Source: a virus. Taken from it: a DNA stretch of 64,000 nt. This document shows positions 42,541 to 43,064 of the stretch, in pieces. Both the position numbers and the translations under genes were made by a program. Below the pieces are notes generated by a model. It ran no database searches. It had not been told where the DNA came from and worked only from the letters and a program-made list of their open reading frames with translations. How positions within the stretch are numbered: the first letter of the stretch is position 1; each line of letters starts with the position of its first letter. The DNA lies in IMG/VR virus record IMGVR_UViG_3300045988_093856, positions 1 to 64,000 of that record; one strand, 5' to 3'.

Positions 42541-42635
42541 TGGCCTCGACCGGACTTGAACCGATATTTTTTGTAATTGCTGTGCGAAACACACCTCATG
42601 TTTCTCTGGTTAGACCATAACCAGAAACCGAGGCC
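42541..42635 (-). ncRNA. tRNA-like RNA A (95 nt) with a non-canonical anticodon-position hairpin
   Basis: Acceptor GGCCTCG/CGAGGCC, D arm TCTGG-TTATGGTCTAA-CCAGA, T arm ATCGG-TTCAAGT-CCGGT. The middle is GAAACA-TGAGGTG-TGTTTC, then GCACAGCAATTACAAAAAAT. Confidence 0.55.
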
Positions 42636-42639
42636 ATAA

Positions 42640-42767
42640 AGACGATGAAAGGAATCGAACCTCTATCCGCAGCTTGGGCCTGTTTTGAAAGTAGTTTGCT
42701 GATTATGCCACTAACATGACATTTCTTCTTAACAAAGGCTGCTATGCTCCCATTGCACCACATCGTC
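42640..42767 (-). ncRNA. tRNA-like RNA B (128 nt) with a ~59-nt expansion (66 nt vs a 7-nt loop) between the anticodon-stem strands
   Basis: Acceptor GACGATG/CATCGTC, D arm GTGC-AATGGGA-GCAT, stem GCAGC...GCTGC, T arm AGAGG-TTCGATT-CCTTT. The insert holds the hairpin TGTCA-TGTTAG-TGGCA and CAGCAAACTAC. Confidence 0.55.
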
Positions 42768-42771
42768 ACAA

Positions 42772-42889
42772 GAGTGAGGGACGGACTCGAACCGCCGACA
42801 ACGCCATTAACAGTGGAATGAGTAATTGCTGTTTAGACCACAAACATGATCCGTTCTCTTTCGTGCTCTACCATCTGAGCTACCTCACT
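42772..42889 (-). ncRNA. tRNA-like RNA C (118 nt) with an expanded anticodon region
   Basis: Acceptor AGTGAGG/CCTCACT, D arm GCTC-AGATGGTA-GAGC, T arm GGCGG-TTCGAGT-CCGTC. The insert holds GATCA-TGTTTG-TGGTC and ACAGCAATTAC. Confidence 0.55.
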
Positions 42890-42941
42890 CATAAATGGCA
42901 CATCTTATTGATTTGTAAGGACATTTGTGCCATCGCCTTGA

Positions 42942-43064
42942 CGGAGAGGGTTGGACTCGAACCAACGACACACGGCTCCCTAAGCAAAATATGTATTGCT
43001 GTCAGCATCACATAGCATGATACATTTGTTTTTTCGTTGCACTAACCAACTGTGCTACCTCTCC
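42942..43064 (-). ncRNA. tRNA-like RNA D (123 nt) with an expanded anticodon region
   Basis: Acceptor GGAGAGG/CCTCTCC, D arm GCAC-AGTTGGTTA-GTGC, T arm GTTGG-TTCGAGT-CCAAC. The insert holds GTATCA-TGCTATG-TGATGC and ACAGCAATAC. Confidence 0.55.

What the first reader, a model, noticed from the sequence alone, without database searches (positions are those of the whole stretch)
42541..43064. Four consecutive tRNA-like genes with normal acceptor, D and T arms but a replaced or expanded anticodon region sharing a conserved module
RNAs A-D (95, 128, 118 and 123 nt) each have a perfect 7-bp acceptor stem, a canonical D arm with the GG loop, and a GTTCRA T arm. Where the 17-nt anticodon arm should be, each carries 40-75 nt. 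That segment contains two conserved parts:
1. A hairpin whose stem covaries among copies: GAAACA/TGTTTC, TGTCA/TGGCA, GATCA/TGGTC, GTATCA/TGATGC, each closing a TG...G loop.
2. Two to four nt later, the motif (A)CAGCAA(T)TAC.

In B the insert sits between the two strands of a good anticodon stem (GCAGC...GCTGC), like an intron at or in the anticodon loop. Bacterial and phage tRNA introns known so far are group I introns of about 200 nt or more, not 45-60-nt elements. These could be a new small intron class, decoy or tRNA-mimic RNAs, or scaffolds for a protein partner.
Basis: seen in the sequence. Interest (0 to 1): 0.8.

Follow-up and report, generated by a model that had tools for sequence, protein, structure and literature searches.

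The report
tRNA-shaped Y RNAs beside Ro60-like gene
Four tRNA-shaped RNAs and three free-standing RNAs just upstream of a prophage gene for a Ro60-like RNA-binding protein all carry the same helix-plus-CAGCAA module, so they are most likely that protein's partner "Y RNAs", here built for the first time into an ordinary, unpermuted tRNA frame.

Summary
Four tandem tRNA-like genes (42541-43064) each have a 7-bp acceptor stem and a T arm. Each also carries a conserved module: a 5-7 bp hairpin with loop UG..G, then 3 nt, then CAGCAA.

- Three more copies of the module lie just downstream (42253-42536). They are circularly permuted, with the hairpin open and the other helix closed.
- All seven copies sit directly upstream of a DUF2828/vWA gene. 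Its AlphaFold model matches Ro60 over its full length.
- Units B, C and D still keep an anticodon-like stem-loop. The module is a side arm inserted in the 5' strand of the anticodon stem.

Helices covary across about 200 related loci. The same helix-NNA-CAGCAA element flanks DUF2828 genes down to about 30% identity, in phages of Mycobacterium, E. coli, Listeria, Staphylococcus, Bacillus and Campylobacter. In mycobacteriophage LeBron it forms the terminal stem of a YrlA-like Y RNA. Unit A is exactly a circular permutation of YrlA.

Best reading: these are Y-RNA-like partners of a phage Ro60-like protein. An intron is unlikely. This is a new variant of a known kind. Protein binding is inferred, not shown.

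The parts
42942..43064 (-). Unit D, a tRNA-like RNA of 123 nt. It has acceptor GGAGAGG/CCTCTCC, a D arm and a T arm. A 49-nt module insert (43034-42986) interrupts the anticodon stem ACG|GC / GCCGU.
   Evidence: Rfam tRNA 45.8 bits with a 60-nt insert. ARAGORN -i calls tRNA-Pro(agg) i49. Parse.
42996..43023 (-). Module core in D: P2 hairpin GTATCA-TGCTATG-TGATGC, spacer TGA, then CAGCAA (42996-43001).
42975..42985 (-). Anticodon-like hairpin of D: GC-UUAGGGA-GC.
   Evidence: The L059 relative keeps the same loop with a covarying lower stem, CCG/CGG.
42772..42889 (-). Unit C, a tRNA-like RNA of 118 nt. A 45-nt insert (42861-42817) lies between anticodon-stem nucleotides CG and CCA. The anticodon-like hairpin CCA-CUGUUAA-UGG is at 42816-42804.
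   Evidence: ARAGORN -i calls tRNA-Asn(gtt) i45. On alignment A2, 96.7% of cells pair; the covariation score is 0.398 against 0.194 shuffled (0/500). Lower-stem pairs covary: 27:96 is CG 7, GC 6, AU 4; 28:95 is UA 10, GC 7.
42826..42852 (-). Module core in C: GGATCA-TGTTTG-TGGTCT, spacer AAA, then CAGCAA (42826-42831).
   Evidence: P2 is 100% paired with 3 compensatory pairs.
42640..42767 (-). Unit B, a tRNA-like RNA of 128 nt. A 57-nt insert (42737-42681) lies between the anticodon-stem 5' strand GCAGC and the loop GGCCCAA (no U33). The 3' strand is GCTGC.
   Evidence: Rfam tRNA 49.5 bits. ARAGORN -i calls tRNA-Gly(ccc) i57.
42696..42722 (-). Module core in B: ATGTCA-TGTTAG-TGGCAT, spacer AAT, then CAGCAA (42696-42701).
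42541..42635 (-). Unit A, a minimal tRNA-like RNA of 95 nt. Order: acceptor, 7-bp D-like hairpin (42625-42605), module, T arm. It has no anticodon arm. The element order equals a circular permutation of YrlA.
   Evidence: The MFE fold has z = -4.7. A-type units occur in nearly all related loci. Order compared with LeBron YrlA.
42577..42604 (-). Module core in A: GAAACA-TGAGGTG-TGTTTC, spacer GCA, then CAGCAA (42577-42582).
42465..42536 (-). F1, a free permuted module: G-UGACGC-UUA-CAGCAA-[long hairpin]-GCGUCA-UG. It starts 4 nt after the 3' end of unit A.
   Evidence: The MFE fold pairs the two distal strands. Conserved in relatives.
42363..42422 (-). F2, a free permuted module: G-GGACAC-UCA-CAGCAA-[hairpin with 7-nt loop CUGUUAA]-GUGUCC-UG.
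   Evidence: On alignment A3, 93.7% of cells pair; the covariation score is 0.378 against 0.183 shuffled (0/500); slid controls are 0.09 or less.
42253..42337 (-). F3, a free permuted module: G-GGACUC-CUA-CAGCAA-[T-arm-like hairpin GCGGTTCAATTCCGC at 42281-42267]-GAGUCC-UG. It ends directly before the Shine-Dalgarno AGAGAGGAAAG of the Ro-like gene.
   Evidence: Weak Rfam tRNA hit at 42266-42321. The T-arm stem covaries among relatives: GCGG/CCGC, ACGG/CCGT, GTGG/CCAC.
40783..42237 (-). Gene for a Ro60-like protein (484 aa from ATG 42237): a DUF2828 helical-repeat ring plus DUF7788/vWA with MIDAS residues D302, S304, S306, T368 and D400.
   Evidence: Pfam. PHROG 850 'RNA-binding protein'. AF2 pLDDT 93.4. 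Foldseek top full-length hits are Ro autoantigen 1yvr (E 1.3e-7), Trove 9kop and phage phiLo Ro60 9l5y. Invariant columns.
42897..42931 (-). Conserved hairpin in the D-C spacer: GGCACA...TGTGCC. Its role is unknown; it may be a processing signal.
   Evidence: Relatives have GGCGCA...TGCGCC, a compensatory change.

Best explanation
The four tRNA-like RNAs (A-D) and the three free RNAs (F1-F3) are Y-RNA-like noncoding RNAs. Their partner is the Ro60-like protein encoded immediately downstream.

The shared module is a short helix (P2) whose end is flanked by G and UG, followed after 3 nt by single-stranded CAGCAA. It is the docking site for the protein ring. It corresponds to the terminal stem and GNCGAA/GGUCCGA motif of known Y RNAs.

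In F1-F3 the helix is formed by the RNA's 5' and 3' ends, the classical Y RNA topology. In A-D the same helix is closed by a UG..G loop and grafted onto the anticodon arm of an otherwise normal tRNA frame with open acceptor ends. This places the protein-binding module where YrlA has it in space, but with the strand topology of a real tRNA.

The whole array is probably transcribed with the upstream tRNA cluster and cut out by the host's tRNA-processing enzymes. The tRNA-shaped body, which in B-D still carries an anticodon-like hairpin, would then act as the effector or tether domain. It would link the Ro-like ring to a host tRNA-binding factor such as PNPase or another exoribonuclease, as in RYPER complexes. 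F3, which abuts the ribosome-binding site, may also let the protein autoregulate its own translation.

What is shown: the anatomy, the covariation, the Ro60-like fold and the cross-lineage co-occurrence. What is inferred: binding, processing, tethering and autoregulation.
For: 1. Seven modules cluster on one strand within 760 nt directly upstream of the gene; chance gives 0.76 per window.

2. The protein is Ro60-like:
- The AF2 model has pLDDT 93.4.
- Its best full-length PDB matches are Ro autoantigen, a Trove domain and Thermus phage Ro60.
- MIDAS residues are invariant.
- PHROG 850 is named 'RNA-binding protein'.

3. RNA-level selection:
- P2, the acceptor, the T arm and the split anticodon stem covary.
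- G.U pairs only work on the minus strand.

4. Co-occurrence with the gene:
- Of 120 viral contigs hit by a module pattern, 97 have the gene 215-816 nt downstream on the same strand, and 11 are cut off too early to tell.
- All 80 close relatives keep 2-3 free modules at fixed distances from the start codon.
- Distant DUF2828 loci also carry helix-NNA-CAGCAA elements next to the gene. L082, L083, L220, L222, L223 and L224 (36-50% protein identity) and L140 (67%) have them clearly; L226 (37%) has only a questionable one inside the annotated ORF start. The six cultured phages LeBron, Bas63, Listeria LP-039, Staphylococcus 6ec, Bacillus FADO and Campylobacter Los1 (29-39%) also have them.

5. In LeBron the module closes an RNA whose interior scores as full-length Rfam YrlA (39.8 bits, E 1.7e-7).

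6. Precedent from the literature:
- Y RNAs lie within 4 kb of Ro60 on the same strand and mimic tRNA (PMC4201824).
- Phage phiLo Ro60 binds two upstream Yrl RNAs and host PNPase (PMC12135203).
- Bas63 gp130, a homologue of this protein, is Ro60-like. It counters the ppl defence, and its authors guessed that neighbouring 'tRNAs' might be Y RNAs (bioRxiv 10.1101/2024.10.10.617714).
Against: - No binding, expression or processing data exist for these RNAs.
- The motif is CAGCAA, not the GNCGAAN0-1G of cellular YrlA; no GNCGAA occurs in the region.
- The Pfam TROVE model does not hit the protein even at E = 10, and TM-scores to Ro60 are only about 0.54.
- Three real tRNA-like-plus-module loci (L096, L177, L170) have no DUF2828 gene in the 7-14 kb available.
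- One DUF2828 locus (L227) shows no module.
- My detection rule for distant free modules requires pairing, so the P2 helices listed for distant loci are ascertained. Nulls there are 0.4-1.7 hits per 6.4-kb locus.
- Tandem copies in a 5' leader could be purely cis-regulatory.
- The kept anticodon-like loops are not explained by a simple tether model.
Confidence: 0.7

Rival explanations
1. Units B, C and D are real tRNA genes (Gly-CCC, Asn-GUU, Pro-AGG) interrupted by a new class of 45-57-nt intron. The intron is removed to give decoding tRNAs, with the Ro-like protein acting as a maturase or cofactor that also binds intron-like sites in its own leader.
For: - ARAGORN -i calls all three as intron-containing tRNAs. 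Deleting the inserts in silico gives sequences that ARAGORN calls as ordinary tRNAs, in the window and in relatives.
- The anticodon stem around the insert covaries.
- 7-nt loops of the form NU-NNN-RN are kept in most lineages, including the distant L083 (CUGAUAA).
Against: - Orthologues sharing one tRNA body have different anticodons: GUU, GCU, UAC and UCC.
- Window B has G32 G33, and one subclass has A33.
- The GCU form lacks the long variable arm that a tRNA-Ser needs (background knowledge).
- Unit A has no anticodon arm.
- The insert site wanders from 28/29 to 31/32 and forms a three-way junction, not a bulge-helix-bulge.
- The same module occurs outside any tRNA next to DUF2828 genes in phages of six host genera.
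- No endonuclease or ligase was found among the ORFs scanned.
- ARAGORN's intron parses are inconsistent across relatives.
Confidence: 0.08
2. The module is only a cis-acting regulatory or processing element of the Ro-like mRNA leader, for example a translational operator or an RNase site. Units A-D are decaying tRNA duplicates into which copies of it have spread, with no function of their own.
For: - F3 ends directly at the Shine-Dalgarno sequence.
- Free modules lie in the leader in most lineages.
- The anticodons look unconstrained.
Against: - Acceptor, D, T and split anticodon stems of the tRNA-like units stay 91-100% paired, with many compensatory changes across lineages.
- Unit A is kept in nearly all relatives.
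- Tandem tRNA-like units with modules recur in distant phages L083 and L140.
- In LeBron, Staphylococcus 6ec and Bas63 the modules lie downstream of the gene or between tRNAs, not in its leader.
Confidence: 0.1
3. The tRNA-like units are decoys or baits for host tRNA-targeting defence nucleases, acting independently of the Ro-like protein. The module merely blocks their use by the ribosome.
For: - Anticodon-like loops are retained and diversify quickly.
- The units sit in a phage tRNA array.
- A homologous Ro-like protein counters a defence system in Bas63 (bioRxiv 10.1101/2024.10.10.617714).
Against: - It does not explain why the identical module occurs without a tRNA frame beside the Ro-like gene in many lineages.
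- It does not explain unit A, which lacks an anticodon arm.
- It overlaps with, rather than excludes, the best explanation.
Confidence: 0.07
4. The module is a small self-cleaving ribozyme or a DNA-level element: a transposon end, a recombination site or a hairpin promoter.
For: It is a compact hairpin plus a conserved single-stranded motif, in many copies.
Against: - No Rfam ribozyme family matches at E up to 1.
- G.U wobbles and covariation are strand-specific, which points to RNA.
- The permuted copies keep RNA helices, which DNA transposition would not produce.
- There is no excess of promoter or terminator consensus matches.
Confidence: 0.02

Closest known systems
YrlA / YrlB bacterial and phage Y RNAs bound by Rsr (Ro60) - Rfam RF02553; Chen et al. 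2014, PMC4201824
   Same: - Encoded within 1 kb of a Ro60-type gene on the same strand, in multiple copies.
- A terminal helix plus a short conserved purine-rich motif, combined with a tRNA-like T arm, D arm and acceptor stem.
- The protein-binding stem occupies the anticodon-arm position.
- F1-F3 share the classical topology.
- In phage LeBron the CAGCAA module encloses a YrlA-scoring core.
   Different: - A-D have native tRNA topology: an open 7-bp acceptor and a closed protein-binding helix. They are the circular permutation of YrlA.
- B-D additionally keep an anticodon-like stem-loop, with the module as a fifth arm.
- The motif is CAGCAA, not GNCGAAN0-1G.
- The partner protein is the DUF2828 branch, not Pfam TROVE.
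- The Rfam YrlA model scores only 24-27 bits here, and those hits are the 'dimeric tRNA' artefact the authors warned about.
Thermus phage phiLo Ro60 with Yrl1/Yrl2 (PMC12135203; PDB 9KOP, 9L5Y)
   Same: - A phage-encoded Ro60 ring plus vWA domain.
- Two Y-like RNAs lie directly upstream of the gene.
- Each has a 5'-3' stem flanking an internal bulge that carries a short motif.
- It is the structural neighbour of our model.
   Different: The phiLo RNAs carry CGAA and are not tRNA-framed. The protein shares only about 15% identity with ours.
Bas63 (Felixounavirus) gp130, a Ro60-like counter-defence protein next to a tRNA array (bioRxiv 10.1101/2024.10.10.617714)
   Same: - A homologous protein: 31% identity over the full length.
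- It is adjacent to a tRNA cluster.
- The authors speculated that some of the 'tRNAs' are Y RNAs.
   Different: In Bas63 the CAGCAA modules lie in the gaps between ordinary tRNAs, not inside tRNA frames. No RNA motif was defined in that work.
Archaeal non-canonical tRNA introns (bulge-helix-bulge) and bacterial group I tRNA introns
   Same: An insert of tens of nucleotides in or near the anticodon stem of a tRNA gene. ARAGORN's intron mode detects it.
   Different: - There is no bulge-helix-bulge; the junction is a three-way helix junction.
- No splicing endonuclease was seen.
- The insert is far too small for a group I intron, and there is no Rfam intron hit.
- The module also exists outside tRNAs.

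Membership tests
YrlA (Rfam RF02553) | Covariance-model score at or above the gathering threshold (69 bits) | tested here: not met
   The best hits are 27.4 and 24.1 bits. They span the T arm of one unit and the D arm of the next, which is the tandem-tRNA artefact.
YrlA / Y RNA (functional class) | Encoded within about 4 kb of a Ro60-type gene, on the same strand | tested here: met
   All seven modules lie 16-830 nt upstream of ATG 42237 on the minus strand. This holds in 97 of 120 pattern-selected contigs.
YrlA / Y RNA (functional class) | Conserved GNCGAAN0-1G (or GGUCCGA) motif in the 5' strand of the terminal stem | tested here: not met
   No GNCGAA(N)G occurs in 42240-43064. A different invariant motif, C(A)GCAA, sits 3 nt after the helix strand.
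YrlA / Y RNA (functional class) | tRNA-like domain (T arm, D arm, acceptor stem) joined to the protein-binding stem at the anticodon-arm position | tested here: met
   Shown by A2 covariation and by the element order of unit A compared with LeBron YrlA. The strand topology is permuted relative to YrlA.
YrlA / Y RNA (functional class) | Physical association with the Ro60 orthologue | not testable with these tools
   Needs RIP/CLIP or EMSA.
Ro60 / TROVE + vWA proteins | Ring of helical repeats plus a C-terminal vWA domain with a MIDAS motif | tested here: met
   Foldseek gives 1yvr at E 1.3e-7, then 9kop and 9l5y, each aligned over more than 510 columns. D302, S304, S306, T368 and D400 are invariant.
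Ro60 / TROVE + vWA proteins | Match to the Pfam TROVE model (PF05731) | tested here: not met
   Only DUF2828, DUF7788 and weak VWA_2 match, even at E up to 10. No PDB sequence hit at E up to 1.
tRNA (RF00005) | Cloverleaf scoring above the gathering threshold, with a contiguous 5-bp anticodon stem and a 7-nt loop with U33 | tested here: inconclusive
   B (49.5 bits) and D (45.8 bits) pass only with a 60-nt insert; A and C do not pass. Default ARAGORN finds none. Loops: D is UUAGGGA, C is CUGUUAA, B is GGCCCAA (no U33), and A has none.
tRNA (functional decoder) | Anticodon conserved among orthologues with the same body | tested here: not met
   Class C orthologues carry GUU, GCU, UAC or UCC.
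Archaeal-type spliced tRNA intron | Bulge-helix-bulge at the exon-intron junctions, plus a splicing endonuclease | tested here: not met
   By inspection the junction is a three-way junction with helix P1 stacked on the split stem. No such enzyme was found in the ORFs scanned, though the scan was incomplete.
Group I intron in tRNA | About 200 nt or more with a group I core (Rfam Intron_gpI) | tested here: not met
   The inserts are 45-57 nt, and no Rfam hit appears at E up to 1.

The most novel reading that the evidence does not exclude
These are tRNA/Y-RNA chimeras that still behave as tRNAs at their acceptor end: processed by RNase P and RNase Z, given CCA, and perhaps even charged. They would present a real anticodon arm while carrying a Ro-like ring on a fifth arm. 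That would let the phage deliver the ring, with an attached host exoribonuclease, to tRNA-binding targets such as anticodon nucleases, synthetases or the ribosome. They would also be living intermediates showing that YrlA-type Y RNAs arose from tRNAs, first by insertion of a protein-binding stem into the anticodon arm and then by circular permutation.
Probability: 0.2. Interest if true: 0.85.

Novelty: new variant of a known kind. Interest (0 to 1): 0.72.

Why it matters
- **A partner RNA for a widespread protein family.** DUF2828/vWA proteins have had no defined RNA partner. tblastn finds them in 710 GenBank phage records. The helix-NNA-CAGCAA element is a concrete, testable RNA signature for this family and is absent from Rfam.
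- **A new Y RNA topology.** A Y RNA's protein-binding stem can be housed inside an unpermuted tRNA. This links tRNAs and YrlA by a simple circular permutation and bears on how Y RNAs evolved.
- **A blind spot in earlier searches.** Earlier Y RNA surveys discarded anything overlapping tandem tRNA genes (PMC4201824). Phage tRNA arrays may therefore hide many such RNAs.
- **A link to anti-defence.** A homologue counters a bacterial defence system in Bas63, so these RNAs may be cofactors of a phage anti-defence ribonucleoprotein.
- **An experimental system.** A related prophage (86% protein identity) sits in a cultured gut Lachnospiraceae strain, Diplocloster hominis CSJ-3.

Tried and rejected
- **Promoter idea.** I first took the three free CAGCAA copies for phage promoters. 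They were rejected because their flanks pair over 50-90 nt and covary, and because consensus promoter and terminator scans are below chance.
- **Rfam YrlA hits in the window.** These are artefacts of adjacent tRNA-like units, as Chen et al. warned.
- **Position-only test of the split anticodon stem, all classes pooled.** It was indecisive: 64% paired in two different registers. Variable-loop length differs by class. The class C alignment resolved it.
- **ARAGORN intron parses on relatives.** They are inconsistent, so they were not used as evidence for anticodon identity.
- **The search for related loci with the 58-sequence alignment.** It failed because no stretch was conserved enough. P0256 gave nothing in viral contigs. 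I used the look-up of encoding contigs and tblastn against GenBank phages instead.
- **Literature.** A search for 'DUF2828' returned only incidental mentions. Two Wolin-lab reviews were not held.
- **Not done.** I did not build a covariance model. Pattern, rule-based and alignment counts were sufficient.
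Full report
**1. What is there**

All features are on the minus strand, downstream of an ordinary phage tRNA array (43100-46640).
- D: 43064-42942
- C: 42889-42772
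- B: 42767-42640
- A: 42635-42541

Each has a perfect 7-bp acceptor stem and a GGTTCRAnTCC T arm. D, C and B have canonical D arms. A instead has a 7-bp hairpin with a GG-containing loop. Default ARAGORN calls none of them. The Rfam tRNA model scores B at 49.5 bits and D at 45.8 bits, in each case with about 60 inserted nucleotides.

**2. The module**

Every unit has a hairpin I call P2: 5-7 bp, with top pairs usually U-A, C-G, A-U and a loop UG(N)G. The 3' strand of P2 is followed after exactly 3 nt by C(A/G/U)GCAA.

Three further CAGCAA copies lie downstream, at 42521-6, 42407-12 and 42322-7. They are not hairpin-plus-motif. Instead, the 6 nt before the spacer pair with a segment 50-90 nt further on, and that segment is followed by UG. 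The arrangement is G-[strand]-NNA-CAGCAA-[variable hairpin]-[strand]-UG. MFE folds recover these long-range helices. These copies (F1, F2, F3) are therefore circular permutations of the embedded module. Even the loop's conserved UG and G are kept, now as flanks of the open helix.

A rule-based scan finds 7 modules, all within 42337-43011 on the minus strand. It also finds 2 strays elsewhere in 64 kb; the null expectation is 0.76 per window.

**3. The neighbouring gene**

F3 ends at 42253, directly before the Shine-Dalgarno sequence AGAGAGGAAAG and the ATG at 42237. The ORF listing begins this ORF nine codons too early.

The protein has these properties:
- Pfam assigns DUF2828 plus DUF7788/vWA.
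- PHROG 850 is named 'RNA-binding protein'.
- The Pfam TROVE model does not hit it, and there is no PDB sequence match.
- An AlphaFold2 model built on 58 diverse homologues has pLDDT 93.4 and pTM 0.92.
- Its only full-length PDB neighbours are Xenopus Ro autoantigen 1yvr (E 1.3e-7), the 'Trove domain' 9kop and Thermus phage phiLo Ro60 9l5y. Isolated vWA domains follow.
- The MIDAS residues DxSxS...T...D are invariant.

It is a divergent Ro60-like protein.

**4. Comparative evidence for RNA structure**

Relatives come from a GenBank faecal phage contig (81% identical), 80 IMG/VR loci and 120 pattern-selected loci. They contain the same unit classes plus a fifth class.

| Alignment or set | Cells paired | Covariation score (observed / shuffled) | Other controls |
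|---|---|---|---|
| Class C alignment (A2) | 96.7% | 0.398 / 0.194 (0 of 500 shuffles as high) | slid controls 0.13 or less |
| F2 alignment (A3) | 93.7% | 0.378 / 0.183 (0 of 500) | slid controls 0.09 or less |
| 56 unique embedded modules, outer three P2 pairs | 140 of 168 | not computed | shuffled 88 +/- 5, maximum 106 |

In the class C alignment, the acceptor stem, P2 and the T arm are each 100% paired, with 4, 3 and 1 compensatory pairs. G.U pairs make sense only on the minus strand, so this is RNA.

**5. The anticodon arm is interrupted, not replaced**

In classes B-E the sequence right after position 26 pairs with the sequence right before the variable loop. A short upper stem with a 7-nt loop follows the insert:
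- Window C: CG|CCA-CUGUUAA-UGG|CG
- Window D: ACG|GC-UUAGGGA-GC|CGU
- Window B: GCAGC|-GGCCCAA-GCUGC

The two lower-stem pairs covary strongly: 27:96 is CG 7, GC 6, AU 4; 28:95 is UA 10, GC 7.

ARAGORN with introns allowed reports tRNA-Pro(agg) i49, tRNA-Asn(gtt) i45 and tRNA-Gly(ccc) i57. Deleting the inserts in silico gives sequences that ARAGORN calls as ordinary tRNAs.

Four observations argue against decoding tRNAs:
- Orthologues with one body carry GUU, GCU, UAC or UCC.
- Window B lacks U33.
- The insertion point varies from 28/29 to 31/32.
- ARAGORN chooses other parses in relatives.

The insert begins and ends with a helix (P1) stacked on the split stem. The result is a three-way junction, a fifth arm, and not a bulge-helix-bulge intron.

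**6. Association with the protein across evolution**

Pattern-selected viral loci:

| Outcome among 120 loci | Count |
|---|---|
| DUF2828 gene 215-816 nt downstream on the same strand | 97 |
| Locus ends too soon to tell | 11 |
| Chance matches in coding sequence | 9 |
| Genuine tRNA-like-plus-module loci with no gene in the 7-14 kb held (L096, L177, L170) | 3 |

All 80 close relatives keep free modules at about -55 to -62 and -123 to -149 from the start codon.

Distant homologues also have helix-NNA-CAGCAA elements beside the gene:

| Locus | Protein identity | Modules seen |
|---|---|---|
| L082 | 49% | 3 free |
| L083 | 50% | 1 tRNA-framed with loop CUGAUAA, plus 1 free |
| L140 | 67% | 2 tRNA-framed, plus 2 free |
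| L220 | 36% | 2 free |
| L222 | 39% | 4 free |
| L223 | 41% | 3 free |
| L224 | 38% | 3 free |
| L226 | 37% | 1 questionable, inside the annotated ORF start |
| L227 | 40% | none found |

Lachnospiraceae genomes carry the prophage, including the cultured Diplocloster hominis CSJ-3.

tblastn against GenBank phages finds 710 records with full-length homologues at 29-39% identity. In all six I inspected, the element lies within a few hundred nucleotides of the gene on the same strand:
- Mycobacterium phage LeBron
- E. coli phage Bas63
- Listeria phage LP-039
- Staphylococcus phage 6ec
- Bacillus phage FADO
- Campylobacter phage Los1

LP-039 also encodes RtcB 1.3 kb downstream.

**7. Link to known Y RNAs**

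In LeBron, whose gene is annotated 'Ro-like RNA binding protein', the middle module reads UGGACUC-UAG-CAGCAA ... GAGUCCA. It encloses a T arm, an acceptor hairpin and a D arm. That interior scores as a full-length Rfam YrlA: 39.8 bits, E 1.7e-7, below the 69-bit gathering threshold.

YrlA RNAs are Ro60-bound tRNA mimics. Their 5' and 3' ends form the protein-binding stem at the anticodon-arm position, and their acceptor stem is closed by a loop (PMC4201824).

Reading unit A from its 5' end gives this order: acceptor 5' strand, D-like hairpin, P2 closed by a loop, CAGCAA, T arm, acceptor 3' strand. That is exactly YrlA cut open at the acceptor loop and closed at the terminal stem.

Chen et al. 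discarded hits overlapping tandem tRNAs and searched only genomes annotated with TROVE proteins. RNAs like these would have been missed. The weak YrlA hits in the window itself are the tandem-tRNA artefact.

Two further precedents:
- Thermus phage phiLo Ro60 binds two upstream Yrl RNAs and host PNPase (PMC12135203).

**8. Interpretation**

The best-supported reading is that A-D and F1-F3 are Y-RNA-like partners of the Ro60-like protein, with helix-plus-CAGCAA as the docking element. Binding, co-transcription with the tRNA array and release by tRNA-processing enzymes are inferences. The only hints for the transcription unit are these:
- A sigma-70-like match at 46790-46762.
- No minus-strand terminator match before the gene.
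- F1 starts 4 nt after the 3' end of unit A.

The tethering role of the tRNA body and autoregulation through F3 are also inferences, by analogy with RYPER complexes.

The intron rival is weak for the reasons in section 5, and because the module exists without any tRNA. A purely cis-regulatory reading does not explain why the tRNA-like helices are maintained, nor modules placed downstream of the gene in LeBron, Staphylococcus 6ec and Bas63.

**9. Novelty and limits**

Ro60/Y RNA pairs in phages are known, so the kind is known. Three things are new:
- A defined CAGCAA-type element for the DUF2828 branch, absent from Rfam.
- Y RNAs with native tRNA topology.
- Forms that keep an anticodon-like arm and carry the protein-binding stem as a fifth arm.

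Limits:
- There are no expression or binding data.
- Detection of distant free modules used a rule that requires pairing. Nulls there are 0.4-1.7 hits per 6.4-kb locus.
- The structural similarity to Ro60 is moderate, with TM-scores around 0.54.
- The role of the retained anticodon-like loops is unexplained.

Noticed in passing
window 43407-43632 (-), and 43172-43406 (-): The 480-nt gap between tRNA-Ser and tRNA-Met has no ORF and is conserved in MT837596.1. It ends in a T arm plus acceptor-like 3' end. ARAGORN, only at a relaxed threshold, calls a short tmRNA-like gene with an unrecognised tag (VRTSHRNSRNPTAPINY*). Rfam gives only a 17-nt tmRNA 3' fragment. The next roughly 230 nt also look structured but match no Rfam family.
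   Followed up: partly
window 43742-43821 (-): A 'tRNA-Phe(gaa)' with an abnormal, expanded anticodon region: Rfam aligns 21 nt where 13 are expected. Its T loop is GGTTTAATTCC. It may be another tRNA mimic in the array.
   Followed up: no
window 42381-42398 (-); also L222, L140, L082: The inner hairpin of F2 has a 7-nt loop CUGUUAA, shaped like an anticodon loop. Nearly the same loop recurs in free modules of phages whose Ro-like proteins are only 39-67% identical (CUGUUAA, CCUGUUAAA, CCGUUAA). The same heptamer is the anticodon-like loop of unit C.
   Followed up: partly
window 42897-42931 (-): A conserved hairpin sits in the spacer between units D and C, with a compensatory change in relatives (GGCACA/TGTGCC to GGCGCA/TGCGCC). 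Its function is unknown.
   Followed up: partly
L001 4506-4742 (-) and most close relatives: Most relatives have an extra ORF of about 79 aa (MNRKEDYRDMEKYHKACQRQ...) inserted between F1 and F2. It is absent from the window.
   Followed up: no
window 18232-19554 (-): A reverse transcriptase (Pfam RVT_1) lies next to large tail-region ORFs. It may be a diversity-generating retroelement.
   Followed up: no
window 31104-31169 (-): An Rfam int-alpA RNA scores above the gathering threshold (48 bits).
   Followed up: no
window 43909-44349 (-) and 45281-45751 (-): Two HNH endonuclease genes are interspersed in the tRNA array. An HU-like DNA-binding protein gene lies at 45876-46151 (-).
   Followed up: no
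window 52748-53335 (-): An Rv2179c-like 3'-5' exoribonuclease domain protein. It is a conceivable nuclease partner for a Ro-like ribonucleoprotein, but it lies 10 kb away.
   Followed up: no
L232 (Listeria phage LP-039, MN172529.2) 5343-6497: An RtcB RNA ligase gene lies 1.3 kb downstream of the Ro-like gene and its three CAGCAA modules. This echoes the Salmonella rsr-yrlBA-rtcBA operon.
   Followed up: no
window 42237-42264 (-): The mechanical ORF call starts 9 codons upstream of the likely true start, ATG 42237 (MSFAEAMK...). The extension overlaps the 3' strand of F3.
   Followed up: yes
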